NCBI GenBank assembly: GCA_038105035.1
Contig: JAYOBT010000005.1
Location: 12,676-76,675 of the forward strand
DNA: 64,000 nt
Direction: 5' to 3'
Source of the DNA: Candidatus Poseidoniales archaeon
Lineage (GTDB): Archaea; Thermoplasmatota; Poseidoniia; Poseidoniales; Poseidoniaceae
Shown here: in pieces, positions 10,696 to 50,800 of the stretch
Numbering within the stretch: position 1 is the first letter of the stretch
Layout of the letters: each line of letters begins with the position of its first letter
Translations under genes and position numbers: made by a program
The notes under the pieces: model-generated
What the model was told of the DNA's origin: nothing
The model's input: only the letters and a program-made list of their open reading frames with translations
The model's database searches: none

Positions 10696-10720
10696 TGATG
10701 CAATCGAATGCAACAATCAA

Positions 10721-18739: not shown

Positions 18740-18801
18740 GAACACCAGAGAATGGCGAGCATCTTTCAACATTCGGTTTGAATTTTTTCGAGCCGGAATC
18801 T

Positions 18802-18821
18802 CGCCCCCCTATAGGGGGGCG
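18802..18821. promoter_or_regulatory. perfect 20-bp palindrome with a TATA core in a divergent intergenic region
   Basis: CGCCCCCC-TATA-GGGGGGCG lies between rfcS (start 18739, minus strand) and the giant surface gene (start 18870, plus strand). Confidence 0.4.
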
Positions 18822-18869
18822 TGCGCCGAATCAGTCATAACCTTCCACACCTTAGGTCGAACGAGCGCC

Positions 18870-28037: not shown

Positions 28038-28045
28038 GTGATCAC

Positions 28046-35368: not shown

Positions 35369-36601
35369 TTGATGGAACACGACATTTTCTTTTCCATCAG
35401 CCAAACGCCAGACTCGGATGGCCATATTCCGGATGAGCAGACGATGCTTCGAAATTACTTCGAACAACTCGAGTGTGCAGATTCTCTCGGTTTCGGAGTA
35501 GGTTGGATTGCTCAAGCCCATCTCTCAACTGAAACACAAAAATCCAACAGCAAACCAGTTGTACCCCACTGGCAAGGAGAAGTTGGACTCTGCACAGATT
35601 TCCCTCAACTTGCCATGGAATCATTTCGAAGAACCGAGAACATTGAGATTGGTAGCGCTGTCGTTTCGATTCTTGCATCGGGTGGGCCGATTGCACAAGC
35701 GGAGAGAATCGCAAACACCTTGCAACTTCTCGCAGTCGGCAACGATTCCCGCAAACTCCATGTTGGCTTCTCAGCCGGTCGCTTCGAATTCATGGCTCGC
35801 CCATATGGAATTGTTCCACGAACGGCTGTTGAAGAAGCAGCATGGCCAGCATTACGAGGACAAATTTTCCTTGAAGCGAGTGAGGTTTTCCTCCGTTTGC
35901 TGCGAGGCGATGTTGTTTCATCAGATTCCGTTCGCTCGACCATTTTAACCCGTGAGAATTTCAGAAGCGATGAAGATTGGCAGCATGTGCAAGAGGCTCA
36001 CGGTTTCGATGCTGATGCAATCGAAATCGAACGTCGTTACGTGTTTGAAGACATTCGAATCGTTCCAAACACATTCGATCGAAATCAATTGGTGCTCGTA
36101 GCGGGAACCCACGATCCTAAAGCCCAAGTTTTTGTCAACTCCTTCCTCCCAGTCCGGGTGTTCAACCTGTCCATTACACAACCGGAAGTTATCGAAGCGA
36201 CACACGAGCGCATGCGTTCTTGCTTCCATCCAGATGGAGGAGAGTGGAAGCGCTCAGATATGCCACGAACCAGTTTCGTATTTGTGAACGATGAACCGGG
36301 CATGACGCCTCAAGAGCAACGGGAGGCGGCTCATCGAGAAGCAGATGAAGCATTGGGTGCCTATTGGAACGCTCTCGAAGGGACCATCGACCCCAACAAG
36401 GTTCAGAACGCAGCTCAAAACGCATTGATTGGGAACGTCGAAGATGTCGCCAAACAACTCGTCGAACGCTTCCATCCAGAGGACCGTGTCATGGCGTGGT
36501 TCGATTTCTTCAATCATGATAGCGCTCGAGTTTGCCGTAACATGCGAGCTTACATGGAAAAGGTCGCTCCACGTGTCGAGGAACTTCTCAAGGGTGATTG
36601 A
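35369..36601 (+). CDS. luciferase-like (LLM-class) flavin-dependent oxidoreductase, tentative
   Basis: The N-terminal pattern ...YFEQLECADSLGFGVGWIAQAHLS..., then IEIGSAVVSIL...PIAQAERIANTLQLL...GFSAGR, resembles the LLM TIM-barrel family. Confidence 0.5.
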   Translation: MMEHDIFFSISQTPDSDGHIPDEQTMLRNYFEQLECADSLGFGVGWIAQAHLSTETQKSNSKPVVPHWQGEVGLCTDFPQLAMESFRRTENIEIGSAVVSILASGGPIAQAERIANTLQLLAVGNDSRKLHVGFSAGRFEFMARPYGIVPRTAVEEAAWPALRGQIFLEASEVFLRLLRGDVVSSDSVRSTILTRENFRSDEDWQHVQEAHGFDADAIEIERRYVFEDIRIVPNTFDRNQLVLVAGTHDPKAQVFVNSFLPVRVFNLSITQPEVIEATHERMRSCFHPDGGEWKRSDMPRTSFVFVNDEPGMTPQEQREAAHREADEALGAYWNALEGTIDPNKVQNAAQNALIGNVEDVAKQLVERFHPEDRVMAWFDFFNHDSARVCRNMRAYMEKVAPRVEELLKGD

Positions 36602-36603
36602 AC

Positions 36604-37725
36604 ATGAAAATCAATCATCACAATCATTCCGCAGTTAAACCTGGTCGGCCGGGTAGCGAATTGTTTCCAAATTCTCCTCTTGGTGAACAGGTAGAGGGCA
36701 TCCCAACAGGTCGGGACGTAGCGTGGGAGCCTTTGGTTGACTACCGAAGGAACGGTGTTTCTGAAACAACCATCCATGGCGCAGTTGCTTGGGCGCATGG
36801 TGATGAAGTCATACATTCCTTTGGAGGAAACGTTCTCTGCTATGGAAGATCGATGATGAAACCGTTCATGCTCAAGGCATTTGTGAATGAATTAGCCGAT
36901 CTTTCATGGGAGCAGAAGGCTATTTCGGTGGCCAGCCACAACGGTGATACAGAACACGTTGCTGCCGCACAGTCGCTCCTTTCACAATCTGAATGGCCCC
37001 TCATGTTGACGCCATTGGATGTACCGTTGATTCAATTCGGACGTCAGGTTCGGCGTCCTCGGCGGTGGTATCACACATGCTCAGGTGAACACGCAGCAAT
37101 TCTTCGTGGATGCAGGGAAAAAGGTTGGAATCGTGCAGGTTACACATTGCCAAGTCACCAAGTGTTCGATGCATACATGTCCGAAATTCGGCGCTTCCTT
37201 GGCGAGGATTGGACGCCCTTACGAATTGCAAAAGATGGATGTGGGTTGCCAACCGTTTCAAACACGGTTGCTGAATTGGCTCAGATTTATGCTGGCTTGG
37301 TTCGCGATAAGGATGAGGACTGGATTTGGGAATCCATGGTTCGTCACCCAGACCTTGTTGGTGGATTCAATCGTCTCGATTCAACAATTCTCAAAGCGGG
37401 TGAAGGGACTGTCATAGCGAAGGAAGGGGCAGATGGATTACTCGGCCTTGCAATTGAACACCCTGATTATCCGAAAGGCCTCGGCATCGTTGTGAAGATT
37501 GCTCATGGATGGAATGCACAAGCAACATGGTACGTTGCGAGAGCCATCCTTGGTGTGCTTGGGATTGATCTGAGAAATCCATACCCACTCCATCGTCAGA
37601 AAGCATTCATTGTACCTGGGATTGTTCCAGAACGATATCTTGGTGTTCTCGAGACCATTCCTACATGGGACGAATGGGACCCTGATCAAGACCGTTGGAT
37701 GTACGATGCGGAGTTGGACGCATGA
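36604..37725 (+). CDS. asparaginase-II-family (PF06089-like) protein
   Basis: GRSMMKPFMLKAF, VASHNGDTEHV, CSGEHAAIL, AKDGCGLP, AKEGADGL and VKIAHGW match the conserved blocks of that family as I recall them. ATG 36604 lies 2 nt after the upstream TGA. Confidence 0.7.
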   Translation: MKINHHNHSAVKPGRPGSELFPNSPLGEQVEGIPTGRDVAWEPLVDYRRNGVSETTIHGAVAWAHGDEVIHSFGGNVLCYGRSMMKPFMLKAFVNELADLSWEQKAISVASHNGDTEHVAAAQSLLSQSEWPLMLTPLDVPLIQFGRQVRRPRRWYHTCSGEHAAILRGCREKGWNRAGYTLPSHQVFDAYMSEIRRFLGEDWTPLRIAKDGCGLPTVSNTVAELAQIYAGLVRDKDEDWIWESMVRHPDLVGGFNRLDSTILKAGEGTVIAKEGADGLLGLAIEHPDYPKGLGIVVKIAHGWNAQATWYVARAILGVLGIDLRNPYPLHRQKAFIVPGIVPERYLGVLETIPTWDEWDPDQDRWMYDAELDA

Positions 37726-39173
37726 ATGCGTTGAACTTCATCGATGGAATCTTTGTCAATGCCGTTGATGGGGAAACGCTTCCAAATGTGAACCCTGCAA
37801 CTGGGGATGAGATTGGAACAATCGCTCGCTCCAATCAGGACGATGTCGATTTGGCGGTTCAAGCCGCATCCCGAGCCCGCAAGGATTGGGCTGCACTCTC
37901 CATGCTCGAGCGTGCAGATTGGCTCGACCGTATGGCAGATGGTCTTGAGCAGCGCAAGGAGGAGATTGCACAGCGTGAATCAAGAGATACTGGTAAGCCA
38001 CTTGCGCTTGCTCGACGAGTAGATGCGCAACGTTCGATCGATAATTTTCGATTCTTTGCAGATTTCGCTCGACAACAAAAGCCAGAAGTGTTCGAAATGT
38101 CGGATGCAACCAACGTTGTTCATCGCAATCCAATCGGTGTGGTTGGACTGATTACGCCTTGGAATCTTCCGCTGTATTTGTTGAGTTGGAAAGTTGCTCC
38201 CGCGTTGCTGATGGGCAACACCATCGTTGCGAAACCGAGCGAAATGACGCCACTTACAGCAGCATTGATGTGCGAAGTGGCTTCAGATATCGGTCTTCCT
38301 TCAGGTGTCATCAACGTTGTTCATGGCTATGGGCCAGAGGTGGGACAAGCCATTCTTGAGCACGCCTCAATCGGTGCGATTTCGTTTACAGGGGGAACAG
38401 CAACAGGCCGACATGTTGCTGCAACTGCAGCTCCAATGTTCAAGAAACTCTCTTTGGAATTGGGTGGCAAAAACGCAACCATCGTGCTCGAAGATGCGGA
38501 TTTAGATGTGGCTGTTGAGGGTGCAGTTCGAGCTGGTTTCACAAACGGCGGGCAGGTTTGTCTCTGTGGTTCTCGAATACTTGTTCACAGATCGATTGCA
38601 GATGAATTCACTCGTCGCCTTGTCGACTCGGTTGCTTCAATGATTTGCGGGCCACCTGAGGACCCATCAACGCAAATTGGGGCGCTAATCAGTCTCGATC
38701 ATCTCCAGAAAGTGGAATCGTACATTGAACTTGGAGTCGAGGAGGGTGGAACCATATTGACAGGTGGTACTCGAGAGATGACAGGACCAGTCACAACAGC
38801 TGAGGCCGGGGCTTTCTTGCGACCAACCATTATCGATGGGCTTGAACATACTTCGCGAACGTCGACAGAGGAGATTTTTGGACCCGTTGTTACCATCCAT
38901 CGGTTTGATTCCGATAAAGAAGCCATCGAAATGGCCAATTCAACGGAATATGGGCTTGCAGGCTCTGTATGGTCAAAAGACGTCGAGCGAGCACATGCGC
39001 TCGCTAGGCAAATCGAGACAGGAATCATCTGGGTCAATACGTGGTTGCATCGTGATCTGAGAACGCCATTTGGTGGCGTCAAGAATTCAGGTGTTGGTCG
39101 AGAAGGTGGCGATTGGAGCCTCGGATTTTTCTCTGAGCCGCTCAATGTTTGCATCAAACATGACCAAGAATGA
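37722..39173 (+). CDS. NAD-dependent aldehyde dehydrogenase, 2-hydroxy-/2-aminomuconic-semialdehyde dehydrogenase-like
   Basis: LNFIDGIFVNAVDGETLPNVNPATGDEIG, RDTGKPLALARRVDAQRSIDNFRFFADF, ELGGKNA, GGQVCLCGSR, EEIFGPV. ATG 37722 overlaps the upstream TGA (ATGA). Confidence 0.8.
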   Translation: MNALNFIDGIFVNAVDGETLPNVNPATGDEIGTIARSNQDDVDLAVQAASRARKDWAALSMLERADWLDRMADGLEQRKEEIAQRESRDTGKPLALARRVDAQRSIDNFRFFADFARQQKPEVFEMSDATNVVHRNPIGVVGLITPWNLPLYLLSWKVAPALLMGNTIVAKPSEMTPLTAALMCEVASDIGLPSGVINVVHGYGPEVGQAILEHASIGAISFTGGTATGRHVAATAAPMFKKLSLELGGKNATIVLEDADLDVAVEGAVRAGFTNGGQVCLCGSRILVHRSIADEFTRRLVDSVASMICGPPEDPSTQIGALISLDHLQKVESYIELGVEEGGTILTGGTREMTGPVTTAEAGAFLRPTIIDGLEHTSRTSTEEIFGPVVTIHRFDSDKEAIEMANSTEYGLAGSVWSKDVERAHALARQIETGIIWVNTWLHRDLRTPFGGVKNSGVGREGGDWSLGFFSEPLNVCIKHDQE

Positions 39174-39222: not shown

Positions 39223-40044
39223 ATGTCGGTTCACAGGAAAGCAACGAAAGTTACCACGCATACGCTTCAGGAAATGAAGCGGGCCAAAGAACCGATTACG
39301 ATGTTGACGGCGTACGATTACTCCCTTGCCCGTCTGGTTGATGCAGCAGGTGTTGACGTTATCCTCGTCGGCGATTCTGCTTCGAACGTCATGGCAGGTC
39401 AAGTGACAACCGTTCCTATGACACTCGACCACATGATCTACCATGCTCAGTGCGTCCAGCGTGCTGTTGATCGAGCACTGATTGTCGTTGACATGCCGTT
39501 TGGAACCTACCAAGGAAATTCCCGGCAGGCTCTTGAAAGCGCTATCCGTATCATGAAAGAAGCGGAGGGCCATGCTGTCAAACTCGAGGGAGGTTCAGAG
39601 ATTGTTGAATCCATTGAACGAATCTTAACCGCAGGAATCCCTGTTATGGGCCATCTCGGACTCACACCTCAAAGCATCTACAAGTTTGGAACGTACACCG
39701 TTCGTGCCAAAGAAAACGAAGAGGCGGAGAAGTTGATTGAGGATGCAAAACTTCTCGAGGAAGCGGGTTGCTTTGCCATCGTTCTCGAAAAAATTCCAAA
39801 GGAACTTGCTCAACGCGTTCAAAGCGAGTTGAACATTCCAGTAATCGGTATCGGAGCCGGTCCTCACTGCGATGGGCAAGTCCTCGTTCTTCACGATCTT
39901 CTAGGGATTACAATGGACTTCTCACCACGATTCCTTCGCCGCTATCTCAATCTTGCTGAAGAAATTGATGGTGCCATTCGTTCCTATTGCGAAGATGTAC
40001 GCTCAGGAGACTTCCCGAATGAATCCGAGTCGTACACGTCCTAG
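39223..40044 (+). CDS. panB: 3-methyl-2-oxobutanoate hydroxymethyltransferase
   Basis: [38 protein letters not shown] and VKLEGG are conserved PanB blocks. Confidence 0.9.
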
Positions 40045-40550
40045 AAATAGATGAATGCGAGTACACTGCCGCCAAAGGCACCAACGTTGACGGCCATGCC
40101 GTGCCAAAGCCCATATCTGAACGGTGGGAACTCAAATTGAAGCCAAAAGGAACTGATGAACAACCAAGCAATTGCAGGTAGAAATCCAGCAAGATAGACC
40201 GATGAGGATCCGAACATCCAAACCATGGAAAGGCAACATGCTGTGACTGCGAAACCCATAGCATACTCACCTGCACGGCTCATTTCCATACCAATGAGTA
40301 GTCTGTAAATTAGTGGTGAAACAACGAGGTAGATGGCGAACGCGCCATGCACAGGATTTGGAACGAATGTATCGATACGAGGCATCACCGTGAGTTGCCA
40401 AATTGCACCAAGGACCATGCCAATCAGCAATGGAGCCATCATATGGCGAAGCATATCTGAGAAGATTTCGCTTCCCGTAACCGCTTCATCATGAGCGACA
40501 TCTGCCGGCAAATCATCGGATGTTGTAACAACATCATCTGCCTCCGACAT
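40041..40550 (-). CDS. membrane protein (hypothetical)
   Basis: 169 aa with an acidic N-terminus and about five hydrophobic helices. I did not recognise a family. Confidence 0.45.
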
Positions 40551-40607: not shown

Positions 40608-41528
40608 ATGCGTCCAATGCTTCGTCGAACCATGTCCAAGGGTTCGATTGTTGCGGGCTGTCTTGCACCGCATCCACCTCATCTTGTGTACGCAGAAAAT
40701 CCTCCGCAGAATGAACCAACCTCTGAGGGAGGTTGGGAACAACTACGGTGGGGATACGAGAGGCTGCGTGAATCGCTTTCCAAGATCGATCACGATGTAT
40801 TGGTTATCCTTTCGCCACATTGGCAGACGTATGTGGGGACACATTTCCTAGGTCTGCCTCATTTTGAGGGGCTCTCGGTCGACCCTATTTTCCCCAACCT
40901 CTTCCGTTATTCGTACAACCTTGACATCGATGTCGACTTGAGCAAAGCCATCCATGACAAAGCAGCGGATGCAGGTCTCGCTGTAAAAATGATGGAAAAC
41001 CCAGATTTCCGTGTCGACTATGGGACAATCACAACAGGACACATGGTCAATCCATCCTTTGACAAACCTCTTGTTGTCATTTCATCGAATCGTTCTCGAC
41101 ATTATTACTCGGTCGAGGTCATGCAAGAGATGATGATGGAACTTGGTCGCGTCACACGCGATGCCATTCTCGAAAGCGGCAAGAAGGCCGTTGTACTTGC
41201 ATCAAATTCACTTTCACATCGTCATTTTACAACAGAATCCGATGTGCCTGAGGACATGAGCAAAGAGCACATAACGAGTCACGCGATGCACCTTTGGGAC
41301 ATGCGAATCATCGAATATATGCGAACCGGACAAGCACAGCGAATCATCGATGAAATGCCAGAATTCACTGAACAAGCGATAGCTGAGTCCGATGGAGGTG
41401 GCTTAACATGGCTTCTCAGTACCCTGACTGTACCTACGTATCCTGCAATTCTTCATGGATATGGAACAATCATTGGAACGGGGAATGCCATCGTAGAGTG
41501 GCCCTGTTATGCCCATGAGGAGGTCTGA
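40608..41528 (+). CDS. LigB-family (class III) extradiol ring-cleavage dioxygenase, catalytic-type subunit
   Basis: GCLAPHPPHLV, ILSPHWQ and SLSHRHF match the LigB His positions. Start set at ATG 40608 (40632 is also possible) because the track start at 40491 overlaps the divergent gene. Confidence 0.75.
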   Translation: MRPMLRRTMSKGSIVAGCLAPHPPHLVYAENPPQNEPTSEGGWEQLRWGYERLRESLSKIDHDVLVILSPHWQTYVGTHFLGLPHFEGLSVDPIFPNLFRYSYNLDIDVDLSKAIHDKAADAGLAVKMMENPDFRVDYGTITTGHMVNPSFDKPLVVISSNRSRHYYSVEVMQEMMMELGRVTRDAILESGKKAVVLASNSLSHRHFTTESDVPEDMSKEHITSHAMHLWDMRIIEYMRTGQAQRIIDEMPEFTEQAIAESDGGGLTWLLSTLTVPTYPAILHGYGTIIGTGNAIVEWPCYAHEEV

Positions 41529-41530
41529 TT

Positions 41531-42928
41531 TTGACCAACCCAATTCTAGCCTCGTACGTGGTTCCTGTTCACCCACACCCTCTCCTCGTTCCTGAACAAA
41601 ACGAAGGATGGCAAAGGCTACGGGACGCTTTTGACGAAGCACGTCAACAGATTTCAGACAGTGATGCAGATTTGATCATCATCTATTCCACAACATGGCC
41701 GAGCATCATTGGACACCAGATTCAAGCTGATCCGAACCCTACCTGGACGTTGGTCGATCAAGATTTTCACGACCTTGGATCAATGGACTATTCGTTCCGA
41801 ATCGATTCTGAATTTGCTGAAGCATGGAATACGGCAAATCATGCAAGAGGTCTCCAAAGCAGGACTGTTGCGTACAACGGATTCCCCATCGACGTCGGTT
41901 CTGTTGTCGCTCTGAAACTCCTCAATCCAGACAATGCCATTCCAGCAGTCATCGTCTCTTCCAACGTTTATGCCAATCGTGCTGAAACCACGGTCCTTGC
42001 AAAATCGTGTCTTGATGTTCTCAAGTCAACAGGAAAGAAAGCGGTTGCAGTTACTGCAATGTCAATGTCCAATCGGATGTTCACAGAATTCATCGACGCT
42101 GCTGATGATAAAATTCACTCACTCAAAGACGATGAATGGAATCGGAAGGTGCTGGAGTTTCTTGAAGAAGGACGTCTCGAGGATGTTGCACAACTCTCTC
42201 GCACCATCCATCAGCAAATTCGTGTGCAAAAGGTCGTCACCTTCAAACCGATGTGGTGGCTATCCGCTATGAACGATAATCGAAACGATTTGACCGGTCG
42301 AGTCCTTGCCTATGAGGCACTGCACGGTGCCGGTGGAGCTGTCGTCCATCTTGACCCAATGTCAAACGGGATGGGGGACAAGGAGTACGACGAGGACGAT
42401 GTTGAGGTATATCACGGAGAACGTAACGTTCTCGATGCAGAGGGTGACGACAATATTCCTGAATCTGAACCAGTCGAAGACAACGGCCCAGCATTGTGGG
42501 ACCCTGCCCAAGGAAAGGATGCTGTGAATACTGATTCTGCGCCAAAACCTGTTGGTTTGTATCCTCATGCACGACGGGTTGGTGACTTGTTGTATCTCTC
42601 AGGCGTCGGTCCTCGTCAACCAGGTACAAATGCCATTCCGGGTGGACCGATTCGAGATGCGAATGGGAATTCGCTCGATTATGATATCAAAGCTCAAACA
42701 AGGGCTGTTGTCGAAAACATCGCTCGCATCCTTGAAGAGGCTGGTTCTTCGATGGAAAAGGTCGTCGATGTGACATCGTTCCTCGTAGACATGGATCGAG
42801 ATTTTGCGGGTTACAACGAGGTTTGGGCAGAGACGCTCGGCCATTACGGTCCGACACGAACGACGCTTGCGATTCGTGCATTACCAACACCAATCGCCGT
42901 TGAGATGAAGGTTATCGCAAAAATCTAG
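41531..42928 (+). CDS. fusion: His-depleted LigB-like domain (AmnA-like, probably non-catalytic) plus a RidA/YjgF-type deaminase domain
   Basis: TTG start with GAGGAGG 7 nt upstream. The N-domain is paralogous to the upstream gene, but SPHW is replaced by STTW and SHRHF by SNRMF. After an acidic linker, the C-domain reads PKPVGLYPHARRVGDLLYLSGVGP...PTRTTLAIRALPTPIAVEMKVIA (RidA fold). Confidence 0.75.
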   Translation: MTNPILASYVVPVHPHPLLVPEQNEGWQRLRDAFDEARQQISDSDADLIIIYSTTWPSIIGHQIQADPNPTWTLVDQDFHDLGSMDYSFRIDSEFAEAWNTANHARGLQSRTVAYNGFPIDVGSVVALKLLNPDNAIPAVIVSSNVYANRAETTVLAKSCLDVLKSTGKKAVAVTAMSMSNRMFTEFIDAADDKIHSLKDDEWNRKVLEFLEEGRLEDVAQLSRTIHQQIRVQKVVTFKPMWWLSAMNDNRNDLTGRVLAYEALHGAGGAVVHLDPMSNGMGDKEYDEDDVEVYHGERNVLDAEGDDNIPESEPVEDNGPALWDPAQGKDAVNTDSAPKPVGLYPHARRVGDLLYLSGVGPRQPGTNAIPGGPIRDANGNSLDYDIKAQTRAVVENIARILEEAGSSMEKVVDVTSFLVDMDRDFAGYNEVWAETLGHYGPTRTTLAIRALPTPIAVEMKVIAKI

Positions 42929-43036
42929 ATTCCGGATTTCGGGAAGATGTATCCTCAAAAAATGCAAGAGAATATATCCTTTGTTTGCTTGAAGGGACTT
43001 GTAAGCACTCTTTGTGCATGAATTCGGGGATTTGCC

Positions 43037-44437
43037 ATGCCAATTTCAAAACTCGATTCTATCGTTGAACAAGGGACTGAAACCATCAAGAAGACCTTGA
43101 AGCGAAGCGTTGGTCTTGCAGGTGTTGTCATTATCTCGCTCTCCGCCATGCTTCCGGGCATTTTCGTGACACCAACCTTCGCTGCCGAGATCATGGGAGC
43201 AGGAATCTGGCTCGCATTCATCGTCGCAGCAGCTGTCGTTCTTCCTGCAGCCATCTCGAAAGCTGAATTGGCATCAGGCATGCCATCGAGTGGTGGTTCC
43301 TACGTCTACCTTGAGCGAACTTATGGGCCAATGATCGGAACCATCAGTGGTCTCGGACTATGGGCTTCGTTTTTGCTTAAATCAGGTTTTGCACTCATTG
43401 GATTCTCTGCTTACTTCATCGCAGTGACCACCTATTTCGATATCGACATGGAAATGCTCGTCCTCTCTATGAGCGCTCTGGTTCTTATTACGGTCGTCAA
43501 CATTCTCGGTGTCAAGAAGGTCAAAGCGATCCAAACACCAGTCTTGCTCGTCACGCTCGCTATGCTTCTCATCACCTGTGCTGCTGCTTTCTTTTCTGCT
43601 GATTTTGATGGCTCGCGACCGTTCAAGGCAGCGTTTGATACCGATTTATGGACACTTGCTGAAACATCAGCCTTCGTGTTTGTTGCCTATGCCGGTGTTA
43701 CCAAGGTCGCAGCGATTGGAGGCGAAGTCAAAGATCCAGAAAAGAATCTACCCGCAGGTATGTTGCTTTCACTACTCATCGCCACGGTATTGTACGCACT
43801 TATTGCCTATCTTATGATGGCAGCCATCCCAGGTACGTGGTGGGAGGGTGACGATGGGAAAATCGTTGAGAACCCCATCTTTGTGTTTGCCGAGCAAGTT
43901 GCAGGTACCGAATTTGGTATATTTGCAGCTATTATCTCTGTTCTCGCTATGATTTCAATGGCGCTTGCAGGTATTCTAGCGTCTTCTCGATTTTTGTTCG
44001 CCATGGGGCAAGACAAGCTTCTCCCTCCAGCACTTGAGCGTGTTCATGAGAAATACGAGACGCCACATTGGCCGATTATCGTCACAGGTGTGGCGATGGG
44101 TCTTGCTATCTTTTTCGTCCCTCTCAAGGATGTCGTAAAGTTAGCATCTGGATTCAAAATCATGATTTTCATCATGATCAACACCTGTGTCATCATTCTT
44201 CGACAAACGAGCGATCGTTATGATTGGAATCCGTCGTACAAAGGAGCATTGTATCCGTTCATGCAATTGTGGGGTATTCTTGCTGGTCTGTTCTTGATTT
44301 ACTTCATTGGCGATAAAGCATTCATCGGTGCATCAGCAGCCATTGCTGCCGGCCTTGTGACCTACTTCCTTTATGGAAAGAAGCATGCAGAGATATCGAA
44401 GACACCTTTCCAATCGTTCATCAAGCGTGACGATTAG
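43037..44437 (+). CDS. APC-superfamily amino acid/polyamine permease
   Basis: About 12 TM helices, with AELASGMPSSGGSYVYLERTYGP, a typical APC N-terminal block. Confidence 0.85.
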   Translation: MPISKLDSIVEQGTETIKKTLKRSVGLAGVVIISLSAMLPGIFVTPTFAAEIMGAGIWLAFIVAAAVVLPAAISKAELASGMPSSGGSYVYLERTYGPMIGTISGLGLWASFLLKSGFALIGFSAYFIAVTTYFDIDMEMLVLSMSALVLITVVNILGVKKVKAIQTPVLLVTLAMLLITCAAAFFSADFDGSRPFKAAFDTDLWTLAETSAFVFVAYAGVTKVAAIGGEVKDPEKNLPAGMLLSLLIATVLYALIAYLMMAAIPGTWWEGDDGKIVENPIFVFAEQVAGTEFGIFAAIISVLAMISMALAGILASSRFLFAMGQDKLLPPALERVHEKYETPHWPIIVTGVAMGLAIFFVPLKDVVKLASGFKIMIFIMINTCVIILRQTSDRYDWNPSYKGALYPFMQLWGILAGLFLIYFIGDKAFIGASAAIAAGLVTYFLYGKKHAEISKTPFQSFIKRDD

Positions 44438-44439
44438 AT

Positions 44440-44607
44440 TCATCGCTTGTAAGCATCGGATGTCTTCTTTCCAGCATCGATAAAGACGCTCGGAATCAAC
44501 CCGTGGATGAGAAGTTGGATGGCACCAAGCCCATATCGGAATGCGAGCTTGTATGCTCCAATCATGTGTTCAAAATATCCCATTCCAACGTCTTTGAGGT
44601 GACCCAT
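44440..44607 (-). CDS. small (55-aa) protein, possibly DUF6356-like
   Basis: Not in the ORF track (under 60 aa). The reverse strand reads MGHLKDVGMGYFEHMIGAYKLAFRYGLGAIQLLIHGLIPSVFIDAGKKTSDAYKR. The family assignment is from memory only. Confidence 0.3.
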   Translation of the reverse strand: MGHLKDVGMGYFEHMIGAYKLAFRYGLGAIQLLIHGLIPSVFIDAGKKTSDAYKR

Positions 44608-44680
44608 AGGTATCCCTCAGCAGTTGTCCTTCTTGAGGCTATGTTAAACGAAGTGCTTCGTTGATGGATTTGTTGTCGAA

Positions 44681-45514
44681 TCAGATGCTGCGAAGACGAC
44701 CGCCATCCACAGGTAACGAGACACCGCGAATCGCTCCTGCTGCAGGTGAAGCGAGGAAGGCGATGACGGATGCAGTCTCCAATGGATCAATCAGTCGCTC
44801 AATAGGAACTTGACTCATCCAACCATCATGGATGGCTTCGACCGATTGTCCAGTACGCTCATGGATGGATTGTGCCAAACTTCCCAATCGCTCCGTATTG
44901 GTAAAACCAGGTAAGACATTGTTGATGGTGATCGAAGGATGGAGTTCGCGTGATAGGGACTTTGCCCAGGATGCCATAGCCCCACGGAGTGTATTCGATA
45001 CGCCAAGGTTTGGAATCGGTTCACGAACACTGGTTGAGATGATTTGGATGATACGACCATAATTTGCGCCGATCATTCCGGGTGTGACCAATTTCACCAA
45101 CGTATGTGCTGCGTGAAGGTGTCGCGTAAACGGCTGAGCAAGTTCCTCAACGCTTGCATTCAACAACGGACCTCCAGGAGGTCCGCCTGCATTGTTGATG
45201 AGAATGTGAATCGGTCCGTCATCGAGAATTGGTTGAACACATCCAGCGATGCCTTCCGTATCTTCCAAGTCCATGACCAATGTTTGGTGATGACCTTTTC
45301 CGAGTTCTGTAAGTTCGTCGAGTAAGGAATTGAGTTGCTCCTCATTCCGAGATGCAAGGATGACGTTCGCACCAGCTTTCGCCATGATACGGGCGGTTGC
45401 TGCACCAATCCCCCGACTTGCACCACAAATAAGCGCTGTTTTTCCTTCAAGTGCATTGTTCTGAAGTACGGCTTGGTCTCCTAAGAGGTCCATGTGTGAC
45501 CCTACAGGTGCCAT
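44681..45514 (-). CDS. short-chain dehydrogenase/reductase (SDR)
   Basis: GKTALICGASRGIGAATARIMAKAGANVILASR (TGxxxGIG), NNAG and the active-site region; 277 aa. Alternative start at 45496. Confidence 0.85.
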   Translation of the reverse strand: MAPVGSHMDLLGDQAVLQNNALEGKTALICGASRGIGAATARIMAKAGANVILASRNEEQLNSLLDELTELGKGHHQTLVMDLEDTEGIAGCVQPILDDGPIHILINNAGGPPGGPLLNASVEELAQPFTRHLHAAHTLVKLVTPGMIGANYGRIIQIISTSVREPIPNLGVSNTLRGAMASWAKSLSRELHPSITINNVLPGFTNTERLGSLAQSIHERTGQSVEAIHDGWMSQVPIERLIDPLETASVIAFLASPAAGAIRGVSLPVDGGRLRSI

Positions 45515-45531: not shown

Positions 45532-46287
45532 TCAAAGCCAATCCAAGATTGCATCTTGCTGAACAAGCCAATCGTCGCTTGCCGCATCGATGATGCTGTA
45601 GTGATCACCAGGGAGCCAAACTTTCTGAACATCGCAACCTTTTGCCTTCATGGCACGTGCGTAGGTTTCGCTCTGTTCGATCGGAACATCTTCGTCACGT
45701 TCCCCATGAAACAGAAGAACGGGTGATTGTGGAGGCATGTCGATTGGATTGACTTTCTTCCACAAGGATTCGTTTTCGTAGGGCAGACAGCCCATCCATT
45801 TGCGAATCGCATCACCTTCGTCGCTGAGTTGTGCCTCGTCCGCACCAAACAAATCTGTAATCGGCGATTGAGCGATGGCCAGCCATGGTTTCCGCTCTGC
45901 TTTGCTTGCCATGAGAAGGGCGAGATGGCCGCCAGCGGAATGTCCCATTACCATGCTTCGAGTGATATCAATTCCTGGGAGAAGAGCAAGTTGCCCCCAC
46001 GCACGTAGAACATCCGAGAGTGTGTCCATCCATACGCCCTCGTCGCCATCTTCCCATCTTCGAAATTCAATGTTCCAACTGGCTACACCTGCATCGCTCA
46101 ACGCATTTGCAATCGGTTGCATCAACTCGTACGTGTACTGTTTCTTCCAAAATCCACCGTGAATCAACATGATGCAAGGGACGCCATGATCGTTCTGAAA
46201 CGGCGAGGGCTCATCGGGCATATGCAAATCTGCAAACTGCCAAGATTCGGCGCCCCATTGCATCCTGTCGACAGGCATAATGGCCAA
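45532..46287 (-). CDS. alpha/beta hydrolase (esterase / arylformamidase-like)
   Basis: Oxyanion HGGFW and nucleophile elbow GHSAGGHLAL. The general pattern resembles arylformamidase/esterase family members. Confidence 0.7.
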   Translation of the reverse strand: MAIMPVDRMQWGAESWQFADLHMPDEPSPFQNDHGVPCIMLIHGGFWKKQYTYELMQPIANALSDAGVASWNIEFRRWEDGDEGVWMDTLSDVLRAWGQLALLPGIDITRSMVMGHSAGGHLALLMASKAERKPWLAIAQSPITDLFGADEAQLSDEGDAIRKWMGCLPYENESLWKKVNPIDMPPQSPVLLFHGERDEDVPIEQSETYARAMKAKGCDVQKVWLPGDHYSIIDAASDDWLVQQDAILDWL

Positions 46288-47855: not shown

Positions 47856-50800
47856 ATGTCGCAACTCTCCATTCGTGCGGTCGTTTTGGTTGGAATGATG
47901 CTGCTCGCAAGCGCATCGCCTCTGTCTCAGTTGTCCCAAGCGGATCCTGAAATCGAGTTACAGGTCGACATGAGCCACATGATTTTGATACCAGGGGAGT
48001 CAGTCAATCTTTCGTTAACCATTGAGAACAACGGCTCATCGATCGAAACCTATGACGTTGAAACTTCACTGGATGGGCTCTCTTCGTTGTGGATGGCTAC
48101 GCCAACAGCATCCTCTGTGAGCAATGTTCTTCCAACCTACAACGCCACGACGACAATCGTCGTTGAACTCGCTGAATCGGCAACGCCGAGCGACAACGGA
48201 AAGTTCACGATTTTCGTGAACGAAAGCGATGGGATTTCGTCCTCCTCAATTGACGTCTATGTTAGCGTCGCTGTCGTCTACAATCCCCATTTGGATGCGA
48301 CAGGAGTCGGGGACCAAGGTTTGTTGGCGATTGAACCTGGGCAATCGGTTGACCTTTCCATTCCAGTAAGCAATTTTGGCAGTGTTACGGATTCTTACCT
48401 TCTCGGTGTTGGTGAGGAGCCTGATCTCAGCGGATGGTGGGCCAACTATTCCTCCAGTGGTTCTTCGAACACAACAACATCTCCGCCTTCATGGTCGACC
48501 TCGGTCAGTGATGTCCTCACTTTTGGCAACTCCTACACGTCTCAGAACGGACTTTCATTCATGCTCGAGGAACTCCTGCGAAGTGCGGCTAGTCCAAGCA
48601 ATACCTCGGATTTTACAAGCGGTGGTTGGACGATTGCCGATCACTGGGATGACGTAAACACCTCGGGTAGTGCCCAAAACCTCTCACTCGCATCCAGTGT
48701 TTGGGACACTGTAATCGTTCATGATCAATCACAAATTCCAGGGTTCTTCCGTACCAATTCCGATTGGCTAGCGAGCAAGAACGGCAGTGTTCACCTTGCT
48801 GAACGGATTGATTCAGAAGGTGCGGCGATGATGCTGATGATGACATGGGGGCGTCGAAATGGCGATGCTCAAAATCCGATTCTCTATTCGAACTTCACGG
48901 TGATGCAAGATCGAATCGAACAAGGCTACATCGACTATCGAGACAACATTTCACTCGAAACCTCTGCTGAGATTTACATCGCTCCAGTCGGTCTTGCATT
49001 CAAACACATTCACGATTCAATCGAAGCTTCAGGAGGCAATCCCTTGTCACCAACATCGACGTTCTATGGTCTCTATTCCACCGATGGAAGCCACCCTTCA
49101 ACATCTGGCTCCTACTTGGCAGCATGTGTTTTGTTCGCAGCCCTCACAGGTGATTCGCCCGTTGGCTTGACCGACAATACGACCATGGATGCAACGCTTC
49201 GTCTGACACTTCAGCAGACTGCAGCAGAAGTTGTGTTCAACGGATCTTCCGAGTACGCCTATCCCTGGGAATCAACCGGTGCCATTCAAGCCATGAGCCA
49301 ACATTCTACGTTCCCCGCTGGGTGGGAAGTTCGATGGTTGGATGATCAAATCGAGAATCTATCTGCCAATGGCCAAGAGACCGCCACTCTTCGAATTTCT
49401 ATTCCTTCTGATGCGAGTCCTGGAGCGACTGGTGTTCGCTTGTATGCAGGTTCCTTGTTTGGAAATCTGACCACTTCCACGCTCATGGTCGTTGATGTGC
49501 AGGCCGATTACGATTTGCAAGTCAATTTCCTCAATGCAGACGATGCGTTCTTGCCCGGCGAACAGACCAACTCCTCTGTTCGATTAACCAACACTGGTAC
49601 AACCGACGCTTCCTATGAATACACCTTGACCGTGCTTTCTGGACCGTGCACTGCTGCTCTTCTCACGTATGCTTCCTCCATCAACATGGGTGCAAATGAG
49701 GATCTTGGGTTCAGCGTCGATATCGGAACTACAGCCAACGTAGGCGATGTCTGTTCACTTCGGCTGACCTCGACACTTGCTTCAGATGCGTCTGTATCGT
49801 TTGTCCGCGATTTCTCGTTTGAGGTCGACCGTGACATCAATTTCACGCTTCAAGGTCCGAACGGGGCTGTTGTCATGGACCCAGAAACGGAAACCATGTT
49901 GGAGGTTCGTGTTTTCAATACTGGAAGTGAAACGGAAACGTTCTCGTTGCAAATCAACAGTGATGCAGCGTCACCTGTCTCGCTCATGCTCGAGAGCGCT
50001 TCAAGTCTCTCTGTCGCTGCCGATTCTTCCGCTGTATGGACGTTGAAAGCAGTCGCTTCAGAGGGTTCATTGGGTCTTCTTGAACGCGTTGTAACGGTTA
50101 CGCATGATTCGATCATCAGCCAAAATCTGGCCTTGCAATTCGATGTTCAGGAACAAGCAAGTCTGAACCTCCGAGGTCCGTTGGATGGTCGAATTGTTGT
50201 CCAATCAGGAGAAGAAGCATCCGTCATGCTCACCATTGAAAACGATGGTACTTCGAACATTACGCTCGACACGTTCACCATCACTGGATTGCCTGGAGGA
50301 GTGAACGCCGTTCTACCAGAGGTAGATGGTTACCTCCTCGAGGCGGGGACGTCCCACAACGTTTCATTCAACGTTTCAGCCTCTGCTGCAACGAGCGCCC
50401 GCACGGATTCGCTCTCGCTTCAATTGCTCTCAGATTCGACCAGCGCAGTCCTATCGATTGAGTTGCAAGTTGTTGACCGAACGCTCGCACAACTGAGCCC
50501 AAACACCAATCAGGTCATCGCAGGACCGTCGGTTGCAACCAATGTCACCATTGAGGTAACCAACATCGGAACGCTTCAGGACACCTTCCTTTTGTCGATT
50601 GGCGCCGGTGAAACATCAAATTATTTTGAACTCTCATTGTCCCAGACCTCGGTCAATCTCGGCATAGGTCAATCCGAAACAGTGATTCTAAGCGTCCGAG
50701 AAACTTCTCAGGGAGCAAGTTCCAGTGGCTTACCAATCAATGTTGTTGCTACTTCAACACTCGATTCGGCTTCGACGGATGTCGCCCTCATCACACTTCT

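What the first reader, a model, noticed from the sequence alone, without database searches (positions are those of the whole stretch)
41531..42928. His-depleted LigB paralog covalently fused to a RidA domain
Aligning the two adjacent paralogs by eye gives two informative pairs:
- VLVILSPHWQTYVG against LIIIYSTTWPSIIG.
- VVLASNSLSHRHFT against AVTAMSMSNRMFT.

The second protein has therefore lost the His residues that correspond, by analogy to LigB, to a metal ligand and the catalytic base. It keeps the first motif (VHPHP). This matches a non-catalytic alpha-type subunit.

An acidic ~60-aa linker then joins it to a full RidA domain that retains the conserved Arg context (PTRTTLAIRALP...VEMKVIA). 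Tethering an imine/enamine deaminase to the dioxygenase complex would let a reactive amino-intermediate be channelled. I do not recall this architecture.

The start is TTG, with a strong GAGGAGG 7 nt upstream and only 2 nt after the upstream stop.
Basis: partly seen in the sequence, partly recalled or inferred. Interest (0 to 1): 0.65.

Follow-up and report, generated by a model that had tools for sequence, protein, structure and literature searches.

The report
Aminophenol dioxygenase alpha subunit fused to deaminase
This gene of a marine archaeon (Poseidoniales, Marine Group II) joins the inactive helper subunit of an aminophenol ring-opening enzyme to the deaminase that acts two steps later, and the same undescribed fusion sits in a conserved operon in hundreds of marine archaeal and bacterial genomes.

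Summary
ORF 41531..42928 (465 aa, TTG start) is one continuous protein with three parts:
- an N-terminal LigB-fold domain whose closest relatives are the non-catalytic alpha subunits of 2-aminophenol 1,6-dioxygenase (AmnA/CnbCa);
- a 63-aa acidic, predicted-disordered linker;
- a C-terminal Rid domain closest to 2-aminomuconate deaminase (AmnD/AmnE), including that enzyme's characteristic loop insertion.

The gene just upstream is a bona fide catalytic beta subunit (AmnB) with all iron ligands. The alpha domain lacks all three ligands and the catalytic His. A 2-aminomuconate-semialdehyde-dehydrogenase-like ALDH lies 2.4 kb upstream.

The fusion is not an artefact. All 240 listed database hits carry both Pfam domains. 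Full-length copies occur in Poseidoniaceae, Thalassarchaeaceae and at least eight bacterial lineages, including the cultured Oligoflexus tunisiensis.

It sits in a conserved module: SDR, LLM-like protein, asparaginase-II-like protein, ALDH, AmnB, AmnA::RidA. An arylformamidase (bacteria) or an amino-acid permease (Poseidoniales) follows.

Both domains belong to known families. The fusion and the operon are undescribed in the literature I could search. Verdict: a new variant of a known kind, of moderate to high interest, mostly because the operon hints at an unrecognised natural route to 2-aminophenol, perhaps from kynurenine.

The parts
41517..41523 (+). Shine-Dalgarno-like GAGGAGG, 7 nt upstream of the TTG start of the fusion gene.
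   Evidence: Read directly from the sequence.
40632..41528 (+). amnB-like gene: the catalytic beta subunit of a 2-aminophenol 1,6-dioxygenase-type extradiol dioxygenase (298 aa from ATG 40632).
   Evidence: phmmer against PDB: 8ihg_A 3.7e-111 and 3vsg_B 4.9e-107. It is 56% identical to AmnB and 54% to CnbCb. His13, His62, Glu251 and His195 equivalents are all present.
41531..42355 (+). Residues 1-275 of the fusion: AmnA/CnbCa-like non-catalytic alpha-subunit domain (LigB fold).
   Evidence: phmmer: 3vsg_A 8.5e-39, 7txy_A 6e-37, 8ihg_B 7e-33. Foldseek TM 0.92 to 3vsg_A against about 0.80 to beta chains. The ligand columns are V13, T55 and Q233, and the base column is N181. It shares the three deletions typical of alpha subunits.
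42356..42544 (+). Residues 276-338: acidic linker with net charge -16. It contains two motifs invariant in Poseidoniales: GDKEYDEDD(V/I)E..GERNVL (42374..42433) and GPxLWxP (42485..42505).
   Evidence: Composition. AF2 pLDDT below 50 for residues 287-318. Invariant columns in 27 Poseidoniales sequences. Linker length is 22-99 aa across the family.
42545..42928 (+). Residues 339-465 plus stop: Rid-family domain of the 2-aminomuconate deaminase (AmnD/AmnE) type.
   Evidence: Best PDB match is 6izh_A at 1.4e-25. It shares the roughly 12-aa Lp2 insertion that generic RidA structures lack. Foldseek gives 6izh TM 0.87 at 40% identity. S357-G358, N429, R443, E458 and K460 are kept. It scores below the TIGR00004 RidA cutoff (85 against 106 bits).
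37695..39173 (+). Aldehyde dehydrogenase, 2-aminomuconate-6-semialdehyde dehydrogenase-like (AmnC-like). The likely start is ATG 37722.
   Evidence: phmmer against PDB: 4u3w 3e-143 and 4i1w 5e-141, both AMSDH. The best NCBIfam match is TIGR03216. It is syntenic with amnB and the fusion in 59 of 84 loci.
36598..37725 (+). Asparaginase-II-like (PF06089) serine hydrolase, a conserved operon partner.
   Evidence: Pfam 2.9e-48. ReAV 7os3 at 2.5e-16, with Ser-x-x-Lys and both Zn-site Cys kept and the Zn-site Lys replaced by Glu. It is 58-98% identical across archaeal and bacterial loci.
35369..36601 (+). Divergent luciferase-like (LLM) flavin-oxidoreductase-fold protein, a conserved operon partner.
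   Evidence: Weak Pfam and PDB sequence matches. The AF2 model matches LLM monooxygenases by Foldseek. Syntenic.
43037..44437 (+). Amino-acid permease (APC family) directly downstream of the fusion. It occupies the slot that an arylformamidase holds in bacteria.
   Evidence: Pfam AA_permease_2 1e-36. Present downstream in 38 of 51 archaeal-labelled loci and in 0 of 33 bacterial ones.
44681..45514 (-). SDR oxidoreductase, orthologous to the SDR that heads the operon in bacteria and Thalassarchaeaceae.
   Evidence: Pfam adh_short. It is 39-60% identical to the SDR placed upstream of the LLM-like gene in L004, L054, L055, L057, L063, L074 and L087.

Best explanation
The gene encodes the non-catalytic alpha subunit (AmnA type) of a heteromeric 2-aminophenol-1,6-dioxygenase-type enzyme. 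A flexible acidic tether at its C-terminus carries the pathway's 2-aminomuconate deaminase (AmnD/AmnE type, Rid family).

Proposed reaction sequence:
1. The alpha subunit pairs with the AmnB-like beta subunit encoded just upstream, which holds the Fe(II) site. Together they open an o-aminophenol ring to 2-aminomuconic 6-semialdehyde.
2. The operon's ALDH oxidises that to 2-aminomuconate.
3. The tethered Rid domain hydrolyses the enamine/imine to 4-oxalocrotonate plus ammonia.

What is shown: the domain identities, the loss of catalytic residues in alpha and their retention in beta, the conserved operon, and the conservation of the fusion.

What is inferred:
- Rid active sites lie between the subunits of a trimer, and each alpha2beta2 tetramer offers only two Rid domains. 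An active enzyme must therefore be a higher-order assembly. The smallest closed form is alpha6beta6, about 0.5 MDa, with three tetramers bridged by two Rid trimers.
- The fusion fixes a 1:1 stoichiometry and co-localises the first and third steps. This limits loss of the unstable intermediates: 2-aminomuconic semialdehyde cyclises to picolinate, and 2-aminomuconate decays spontaneously.
For: Domains:
- Pfam LigB plus Ribonuc_L-PSP.
- The N-terminal part is closest to alpha subunits 3vsg_A, 7txy_A and 8ihg_B. Foldseek TM is 0.92 to alpha chains against 0.80 to beta chains.
- The C-terminal part is closest to AmnE 6izh and shares its Lp2 insertion and cleft residues.

Ligands: present in the window's AmnB, absent in the fusion and in all 51 fused homologues.

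ALDH: best matches are AMSDH structures at 3e-143.

Gene order: amnB then amnA, as in Pseudomonas amnBAC.

Conservation:
- 120 of 120 and 120 of 120 listed hits carry both domains.
- The best 80 GTDB loci are full length and come from Poseidoniales and many bacterial phyla.
- Synteny with AmnB, ALDH, the asparaginase-II-like gene and the LLM-like gene.

Independent Rosetta-stone fusions of the same Rid subtype to enzymes of the same branch:
- ALDH plus three Rid domains (P0125; its ALDH is 56% identical to the window's).
- ACMSD-like plus ALDH plus Rid in Chrysochromulina.

Literature:
- Rid clefts lie at subunit interfaces (PMC6742747).
- Alpha/beta heterodimers dimerise through beta, and the first three enzymes co-occur with microcompartment shell genes in Actinobacteria (PMC10470539).
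- 2-aminomuconic semialdehyde gives picolinate non-enzymatically (PMC3790839).
- 2-aminomuconate has a half-life of about 160 min, and the deaminase is a specialised Rid that generic RIDA cannot replace (bioRxiv 10.64898/2026.06.05.730449).
Against: - There are no biochemical data for any member of this fused family.
- The fused activities are not consecutive steps, so simple substrate channelling between them is not expected.
- The alpha domain is only 27-31% identical to characterised alpha subunits.
- The Rid domain is 40% identical to AmnE and lacks its hexamer-forming Arg56 (Asn here). Glu88 is Asp.
- The downstream meta-pathway genes (decarboxylase, hydratase, aldolase) are not in the window.
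- The true substrate is unknown. The conserved partners (LLM-like, asparaginase-II-like, SDR, arylformamidase) do not belong to the classical amn operon.
- The oligomer model is geometric inference only.
Confidence: 0.75

Rival explanations
1. The tethered Rid domain acts on the immediate dioxygenase product. It deaminates 2-aminomuconic 6-semialdehyde (through its imine tautomer) to 2-hydroxymuconic semialdehyde, and the ALDH then oxidises that. The fusion would then couple truly consecutive steps and directly prevent cyclisation to picolinate.
For: - A fusion to the dioxygenase rather than to the ALDH makes most kinetic sense if the steps are consecutive.
- 2-aminomuconic semialdehyde is the most unstable intermediate (PMC3790839).
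- The ALDH's best NCBIfam model is 2-hydroxymuconic semialdehyde dehydrogenase, TIGR03216.
- The Rid domain is only 40% identical to AmnE, so its specificity could differ.
Against: - The closest characterised relatives are 2-aminomuconate deaminases.
- The ALDH's best structural relatives are 2-aminomuconate-semialdehyde dehydrogenases.
- In other lineages the same Rid subtype is fused to the C-terminus of the ALDH (P0125, P0411). That fits the order ALDH then Rid.
Confidence: 0.15
2. The Rid domain is a generic RidA or a purely structural oligomerisation module. As a generic RidA it would be a 2-aminoacrylate/iminopropanoate scavenger protecting nearby enzymes. In neither case would it be a pathway-specific deaminase.
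For: - The domain keeps the universal Rid arginine and fold.
- Rid trimers are very stable and would multimerise the dioxygenase.
Against: - It scores below NCBIfam's RidA cutoff (85 against 106 bits).
- It shares the AmnE-specific loop insertion.
- It always sits beside AmnB and usually beside an AMSDH-like ALDH.
- Generic human RIDA does not act on 2-aminomuconate, and the specialised deaminase does not act on iminopropanoate.
Confidence: 0.06
3. The fusion is an artefact: a frameshift, a mis-assembly, or a missed stop between separate amnA and amnD genes.
For: - One short contig carries a stand-alone homologous Rid gene that overlaps an upstream partial ORF (L088). That could be a split or frameshifted copy.
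Against: - The reading frame is continuous in the window and in 80 of 80 best GTDB loci from independent projects.
- The 240 listed cluster representatives all have both domains.
- The fusion is present in the complete 7.57-Mb genome of a cultured bacterium.
- Linker motifs are under selection.
Confidence: 0.01

Closest known systems
AmnA / CnbCa, alpha subunit of 2-aminophenol (2-amino-5-chlorophenol) 1,6-dioxygenase (PDB 8IHG_B, 3VSG_A, 7TXY_A)
   Same: - LigB fold.
- Loss of the Fe ligands and of the catalytic His.
- The same three deletions relative to the beta subunit.
- Encoded directly after the beta subunit gene.
- Best sequence and fold matches.
   Different: - Only 27-31% identical.
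- Carries a 22-99-aa linker plus a C-terminal Rid domain that no characterised alpha subunit has.
- The Poseidoniales versions have a lineage-specific VHPH motif.
AmnD/AmnE 2-aminomuconate deaminase of Pseudomonas sp. AP-3 (PDB 6IZH), and the fungal and Burkholderia 2-aminomuconate deaminases
   Same: - Rid fold.
- The long Lp2 loop insertion.
- Conserved cleft residues: Ser-Gly, Asn, Arg, Glu, Lys.
- Genomic association with an aminophenol dioxygenase and AMSDH.
   Different: - Not a free-standing 15-kDa protein.
- Arg56, which stacks AmnE trimers into hexamers, is Asn.
- Glu88 is Asp.
- About 40% identity.
ARO bacterial microcompartment of Actinobacteria (PMC10470539)
   Same: The same three early enzymes (aminophenol dioxygenase, ALDH, 2-aminomuconate deaminase) are physically co-localised, presumably to contain reactive intermediates.
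   Different: Co-localisation there is by encapsulation in a protein shell and uses separate polypeptides. Here it is by covalent fusion, with no shell genes.
Other fusions of the same Rid subtype: ALDH::3xRid (P0125) and ACMSD-like::ALDH::Rid of Chrysochromulina tobinii (KOO23627.1, P0411); 3x-RidA proteins (Niehaus et al. 2015, PMC4433059)
   Same: A 2-aminomuconate-deaminase-like Rid domain is covalently attached to an upstream enzyme of the 2-aminomuconate branch. Tandem Rid domains mimic the trimer.
   Different: The partner there is the ALDH or the decarboxylase, that is, the preceding step. It is not the inactive dioxygenase subunit.

Membership tests
2-aminophenol 1,6-dioxygenase alpha subunit (AmnA/CnbCa) | LigB (class III extradiol dioxygenase) fold, closer to alpha than to beta subunits. 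| tested here: met
   phmmer 8.5e-39 to 3vsg_A against 4.9e-24 to 3vsg_B. Foldseek TM 0.92 to alpha against 0.80 to beta.
2-aminophenol 1,6-dioxygenase alpha subunit (AmnA/CnbCa) | Lacks the Fe(II) ligands (beta His13, His62, Glu251) and the catalytic His195. | tested here: met
   The columns are V13, T55, Q233 and N181 in the window protein. Across 51 fused homologues they are G/V, Q/T, N/Q and mostly N.
2-aminophenol 1,6-dioxygenase alpha subunit (AmnA/CnbCa) | Encoded next to, and downstream of, an intact catalytic beta subunit gene. | tested here: met
   AmnB 40632..41528 ends 2 nt before the fusion start. AmnB is adjacent in 80 of 84 loci.
2-aminophenol 1,6-dioxygenase alpha subunit (AmnA/CnbCa) | Forms an alpha2beta2 complex with beta and supports 2-aminophenol ring cleavage. 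| not testable with these tools
   No multimer prediction or biochemistry is available.
2-aminomuconate deaminase (AmnD/AmnE, Rid family) | Rid/YjgF fold with the conserved cleft residues, including the Arg. | tested here: met
   PF01042 at 3e-25. S357-G358, N429, R443, E458 and K460 align with AmnE S35-G36, position 103, R117, E133 and K135. Glu88 is Asp.
2-aminomuconate deaminase (AmnD/AmnE, Rid family) | Extended Lp2 loop (AmnE residues 38-60) that is absent from generic RidA. | tested here: met
   The insertion is aligned in register with 6izh. 2dyy, 2csl and 3l7q show a 12-13-residue gap there.
2-aminomuconate deaminase (AmnD/AmnE, Rid family) | Homohexamer through Arg56-Met96 contacts, as in AmnE of strain AP-3. 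| tested here: not met
   The Arg56 position is Asn. This feature is specific to AmnE of AP-3 rather than to the activity.
2-aminomuconate deaminase (AmnD/AmnE, Rid family) | Catalyses 2-aminomuconate to 4-oxalocrotonate plus NH3. | not testable with these tools
   Needs an enzyme assay.
Generic RidA (2-iminobutanoate/2-iminopropanoate deaminase, TIGR00004) | Score above the curated NCBIfam cutoff. | tested here: not met
   85.2 bits against a cutoff of 106.25.
Catalytic LigB-type extradiol dioxygenase | 2-His-1-carboxylate Fe(II) site plus the catalytic His. | tested here: not met
   All four positions are substituted in the fusion. They are met by the upstream AmnB instead.

The most novel reading that the evidence does not exclude
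The fusion is the core of an unrecognised, widespread pathway that makes and then burns 2-aminophenol from kynurenine.

Proposed route:
1. The arylformamidase (bacteria) or the amino-acid permease (Poseidoniales) supplies kynurenine.
2. The LLM-fold flavoenzyme performs a Baeyer-Villiger-type oxygen insertion at the aryl ketone. This gives the 2-aminophenyl beta-ester of aspartate, or its O-to-N-shifted anilide.
3. The asparaginase-II-like hydrolase releases L-aspartate and 2-aminophenol.
4. AmnB/AmnA::RidA with the ALDH converts 2-aminophenol to 4-oxalocrotonate plus ammonia.

This route would bypass kynurenine monooxygenase, kynureninase, HAAO and ACMSD. It would give the most abundant planktonic archaea a defined aromatic amino-acid-derived substrate.
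Probability: 0.25. Interest if true: 0.85.

Novelty: new variant of a known kind. Interest (0 to 1): 0.55.

Why it matters
The 2-aminophenol meta-cleavage enzymes are known almost only from soil bacteria that degrade nitrobenzene or aniline pollutants. Here the same chemistry is conserved in Marine Group II archaea, the dominant uncultured surface-ocean archaea, and in many marine and soil bacterial phyla. It comes in a fixed operon with partners that do not belong to the xenobiotic pathway. That argues for a natural, abundant o-aminophenol source in the sea, and for a role in recovering nitrogen and carbon from it.

The fusion is also a natural experiment in enzyme co-localisation. Joining a C2 complex to a C3 enzyme forces a large assembly. 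This is an alternative to the microcompartment that Actinobacteria use for the same three enzymes.

The identical operon exists in the cultured Oligoflexus tunisiensis, so both the assembly and the pathway can be tested directly.

Tried and rejected
- Assembly or frameshift artefact: rejected by conservation.
- Metal ligands retained at shifted positions: rejected. The only nearby His (His14) is lineage-specific, and the other fused homologues have Gly-x there.
- The alpha/beta hydrolase at 45532..46287 as a eukaryote-type kynurenine formamidase replacing KynB: not supported. It gives no PDB or NCBIfam match to formamidases, and it is syntenic only in the closest relatives L007-L016.
- Search for tryptophan 2,3-dioxygenase or classical downstream meta-pathway genes: none found in the window or in bacterial flanks. 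My crude ORF calling in high-GC loci limits that result.
- Stand-alone homologues P0159 (Rid) and P0146 (alpha-like), examined to detect fission events: the contexts were too short or uninformative.
- GC composition: no island was found.
- He & Spain 1998 (deaminase specificity) is not held in the library.
- Two literature searches were malformed or too broad and gave nothing useful.
- Searches combining aminophenol or aminomuconate with MGII terms, kynurenine with 2-aminophenol plus Baeyer-Villiger, LLM or asparaginase, and RidA with LigB and fusion found no description of the fusion or the operon. Two key MGII metabolism papers do not mention dioxygenases or kynurenine.
Full report
**Observation**

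The + strand ORF 41531..42928 (TTG start, 465 aa) is present as described. GAGGAGG at 41517..41523 lies 7 nt before the start. The upstream gene's TGA (41526..41528) ends 2 nt before it.

Pfam finds a LigB domain (aa 21-263, 4e-11) and a Ribonuc_L-PSP/Rid domain (aa 335-464, 3e-25) in the one polypeptide.

The upstream ORF is best read from ATG 40632 (298 aa). The longer 40491 start overlaps a minus-strand gene and adds residues that homologues lack.

**What the two LigB paralogues are**

The upstream protein matches the catalytic beta subunits of 2-aminophenol 1,6-dioxygenase:
- 8ihg_A at 3.7e-111 and 3vsg_B at 4.9e-107;
- 56% and 54% identity respectively.

The N-terminal 275 residues of the fusion match the alpha subunits of the same enzymes better than the beta subunits:
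- alpha: 3vsg_A 8.5e-39, 7txy_A 6e-37, 8ihg_B 7e-33;
- beta: about 1e-23.

An AlphaFold2 model (51-sequence alignment, pLDDT 81, pTM 0.74) superposes on alpha chains with TM 0.89-0.92. It superposes on beta chains with TM about 0.80.

I aligned the window proteins with the PDB sequences and distant fused homologues. The beta-subunit iron ligands (His13, His62, Glu251, CnbCb numbering) and His195 are all present in the window's AmnB. In the fusion they are replaced by Val13, Thr55, Gln233 and Asn181.

Across 51 fused proteins these columns are Gly/Val, Gln/Thr, Asn/Gln and mostly Asn. The fusion also shares the three deletions that distinguish alpha from beta subunits.

The His lies one column beside the ligand position and is specific to Poseidoniales. 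The domain is an orthodox non-catalytic alpha subunit.

**What the Rid domain is**

The best solved relative is AmnE/AmnD, the 2-aminomuconate deaminase of Pseudomonas sp. AP-3 (6izh):
- phmmer 1.4e-25;
- Foldseek TM 0.87 at 40% identity.

The alignment is in register through AmnE's long Lp2 loop. Generic RidA structures (2dyy, 2csl, 3l7q) have a 12-13-residue gap there.

The cleft residues named in the AmnE paper (PMC6742747) are kept as Ser357-Gly358, Asn429, Arg443 and Lys460. Glu458, which aligns with AmnE Glu133, is also kept. Two positions differ: Glu88 is Asp413, and the hexamer-forming Arg56 is Asn.

The domain scores below NCBIfam's RidA cutoff (85 against 106 bits).

A 2026 preprint shows two relevant things (10.64898/2026.06.05.730449):
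- 2-aminomuconate deaminases are a specialised Rid subgroup. Human RIDA does not act on 2-aminomuconate, and the fungal deaminase does not act on iminopropanoate.
- 2-aminomuconate decays with a half-life of about 160 min.

**The linker**

Residues 276-338 carry 19 acidic and 3 basic residues. Residues 287-318 have pLDDT below 50.

Within 27 Poseidoniales sequences (76-95% identical) two stretches are invariant: GDKEYDEDD(V/I)E..GERNVL and GPxLWxP. A variable spacer lies between them.

Across the family the linker ranges from 22 to 99 aa. An Oligoflexia-type group has a different conserved acidic-aromatic motif, SEEGSQAxxVEELTDFE...DYEIVS.

The tether is thus flexible but not featureless. The motifs may dock onto a partner. 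That is inference.

**Reality and spread of the fusion**

- All 120 best hits to the window protein (76-95% identical, 433-487 aa) carry both Pfam domains. Where they are named, they come from Poseidoniales or 'Euryarchaeota' MAGs.
- At the 50%-cluster level, full-length fused representatives persist down to 41% identity (P0121, P0123, P0130).
- All 120 best hits to P0123 also carry both domains. They include a protein of the cultured bacterium Oligoflexus tunisiensis (P0314, 501 aa).
- A scan of one genome per GTDB species returned 585 relatives. The best 80 are all full length except where a contig ends. They come from Poseidoniaceae, Thalassarchaeaceae, other Thermoplasmatota, Planctomycetota, Myxococcota, Thermoanaerobaculia, Holophagaceae, Solibacteraceae, Krumholzibacteriia, Bdellovibrionales and proteobacterial MAGs.
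- The window itself is closest (96%) to a Ca. Poseidoniaceae MAG (L007).
- The other genes in the window are archaeal: PolD small subunit, RFC, LonB, aRF1-like.
- GC content is flat, so there is no island.

An artefact is excluded.

**Context**

The ALDH at 37695..39173 is closest to 2-aminomuconate-6-semialdehyde dehydrogenases (4u3w 3e-143).

tblastn of the window's proteins against 84 loci shows a conserved module. Its gene order is an LLM-like protein, an asparaginase-II-like protein, the ALDH, AmnB and AmnA::RidA.
- It is often headed by an SDR.
- In Poseidoniaceae, panB and a small membrane-protein gene are inserted between the ALDH and amnB.
- In Poseidoniaceae the SDR ortholog sits downstream on the opposite strand (44681..45514).

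In 26 of 33 bacterial-labelled loci the next gene on the same strand is a PF04199 arylformamidase. The O. tunisiensis copy scores 209 bits against TIGR03035, whose cutoff is 223.

In Poseidoniales that slot holds an amino-acid permease instead: 38 of 51 loci, against 0 of 33 bacterial loci.

O. tunisiensis has the full seven-gene operon on one strand.

The asparaginase-II-like protein is the most conserved member, at 58-77% identity between domains of life. It keeps the ReAV Ser-x-x-Lys motif and both Zn-site cysteines, while the Zn-site Lys is Glu.

The LLM-like protein is only weakly recognised by sequence. Its model (pLDDT 77) matches LLM flavin monooxygenases, and type II Baeyer-Villiger monooxygenases are among the hits.

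No TDO, kynureninase, KMO, HAAO, ACMSD or downstream meta-pathway genes were found in the window or in the flanks I examined.

**Mechanism**

Shown: this is the alpha subunit of an AmnAB-type dioxygenase carrying the pathway's deaminase.

Established for the family:
- AmnAB makes 2-aminomuconic 6-semialdehyde, which cyclises non-enzymatically to picolinate (PMC3790839).
- AmnC oxidises it to 2-aminomuconate.
- AmnD/E deaminates that to 4-oxalocrotonate (PMC6742747).

The fused activities are therefore steps 1 and 3.

Inferred: Rid active sites lie at trimer interfaces, and alpha/beta heterodimers pair through beta, leaving the alpha subunits peripheral (PMC10470539). Each tetramer supplies only two Rid domains. 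An active Rid trimer must therefore draw on at least two tetramers. The smallest closed assembly is alpha6beta6, about 0.5 MDa.

The benefit is probably fixed stoichiometry and co-localisation rather than a tunnel.

Nature co-localises the same three enzymes in other ways:
- in a microcompartment in Actinobacteria;
- by fusing this Rid subtype to the ALDH (P0125, whose ALDH is 56% identical to the window's, plus three Rid domains);
- by fusing it to an ACMSD-like domain plus ALDH in the haptophyte Chrysochromulina (P0411).

The main rival is that the tethered Rid deaminates the semialdehyde directly, which would make the fused steps consecutive. I rate it at about 0.15, because the ALDH::Rid fusions and the closest homologues favour the classical order.

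**Novelty**

Both domains are members of known families. The covalent AmnA::deaminase architecture is not mentioned in any source I could reach:
- the Rid family survey mentions 3x-RidA and unspecified fusions only (PMC4433059);
- the AmnE structure paper and the ARO microcompartment paper do not mention it;
- two MGII metabolism papers do not mention it;
- none of the literature searches found it.

No PDB chain spans both domains. Databases label these proteins inconsistently. I class the finding as a new variant of a known kind.

**The most novel reading not excluded**

The conserved partners fit a two-step conversion of kynurenine to 2-aminophenol plus aspartate:
1. Baeyer-Villiger oxygenation by the LLM-fold enzyme.
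2. Hydrolysis of the resulting beta-aspartyl aryl ester or anilide by the asparaginase-like enzyme.

Kynurenine would be supplied by the arylformamidase in bacteria, or by the permease in Poseidoniales. This explains why an arylformamidase of tryptophan catabolism is linked to an aminophenol dioxygenase in the absence of KMO, kynureninase, HAAO and ACMSD.

No paper in the library links these elements.

The reading rests on gene co-occurrence and chemical logic only. The SDR is unexplained. No flavin reductase or TDO is linked. I give it about 0.25.

Noticed in passing
window 35369..39173 and 40632..45514; loci L004, L050, L055, L063, L074, L087 and others: The module LLM-like, asparaginase-II-like, AMSDH-like ALDH, AmnB and AmnA::RidA, often with an SDR, is conserved across Poseidoniales and many bacterial phyla. 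A PF04199/TIGR03035-like arylformamidase follows the fusion in 26 of 33 bacterial loci. An amino-acid permease takes that slot in 38 of 51 archaeal loci. The substrate is unknown and may be kynurenine.
   Followed up: partly
P0125 (metagenome, 873 aa); P0229; P0231; P0411 (Chrysochromulina tobinii KOO23627.1, 1018 aa): Other Rosetta-stone fusions involve the same deaminase-like Rid subtype. One is an AMSDH-like ALDH followed by three tandem Rid domains. Another, in a haptophyte alga, is Amidohydro_2 (ACMSD-like), ALDH and Rid in one chain.
   Followed up: partly
P0122 (Diplonema japonicum), P0177, P0225/P0280 (Nitrospinota): Single polypeptides carry three tandem Rid domains that are closely related to the window's Rid domain. 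They are presumably covalent trimers.
   Followed up: no
P0197 (983 aa), P0220 (1034 aa), P0224 (682 aa): An AmnA-like alpha domain sits about 400 residues into longer proteins. In P0197 the N-terminal part is a BPD_transp_2 branched-chain amino-acid ABC permease domain. This is either a different fusion partner for the inactive subunit or a gene-calling run-on.
   Followed up: no
window 36598..37725: The asparaginase-II-like protein keeps the ReAV Ser-x-x-Lys motif and both zinc-site cysteines, but the zinc-site Lys is Glu (CSGEH). It is the most conserved gene of the module, at up to 77% identity between archaea and bacteria.
   Followed up: partly
window 42374..42433 and 42485..42505; P0292-P0330 linkers: The 'linker' holds lineage-specific invariant acidic-aromatic motifs. 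Poseidoniales have GDKEYDEDDVE..GERNVL and GPxLWxP. Oligoflexia-type proteins have SEEGSQAxxVEELTDFE...DYEIVS. These may be docking peptides for an unknown partner.
   Followed up: partly
window 30622..32631: One 669-aa ORF combines a complete Glyco_hydro_1 domain (aa 32-444) with an NTP_transferase domain (aa 448-580). This is an unusual pairing that I did not examine further.
   Followed up: no
window 18738..28037, 10667..13426, 28016..30640 and 47856..51842: These are very large ORFs (3099, 919, 874 and 1328 aa). Two of them (10667..13426 and 28016..30640) carry only faint Ig/cadherin-like Pfam hits; the other two were not scanned. The 1328-aa ORF ends in a hydrophobic stretch, a poly-Glu run and two CxxC pairs. 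They are probably surface proteins typical of Poseidoniales.
   Followed up: no
window 39223..40550; L001 4918..5640; L042: In Poseidoniaceae the module is interrupted between the ALDH and amnB by panB and a small minus-strand membrane-protein gene. Some relatives add a LON_substr_bdg gene. L042 has the LLM-like, asparaginase-II-like and ALDH block inverted. Thalassarchaeaceae and bacteria keep the module contiguous.
   Followed up: partly
window 45532..46287 (-): An alpha/beta hydrolase (BD-FAE/Abhydrolase_3-like, with HGGFW and GHSAGG motifs) lies next to the SDR. I considered it as a possible formamidase substitute. It has no specific match and is syntenic only in the closest relatives.
   Followed up: yes
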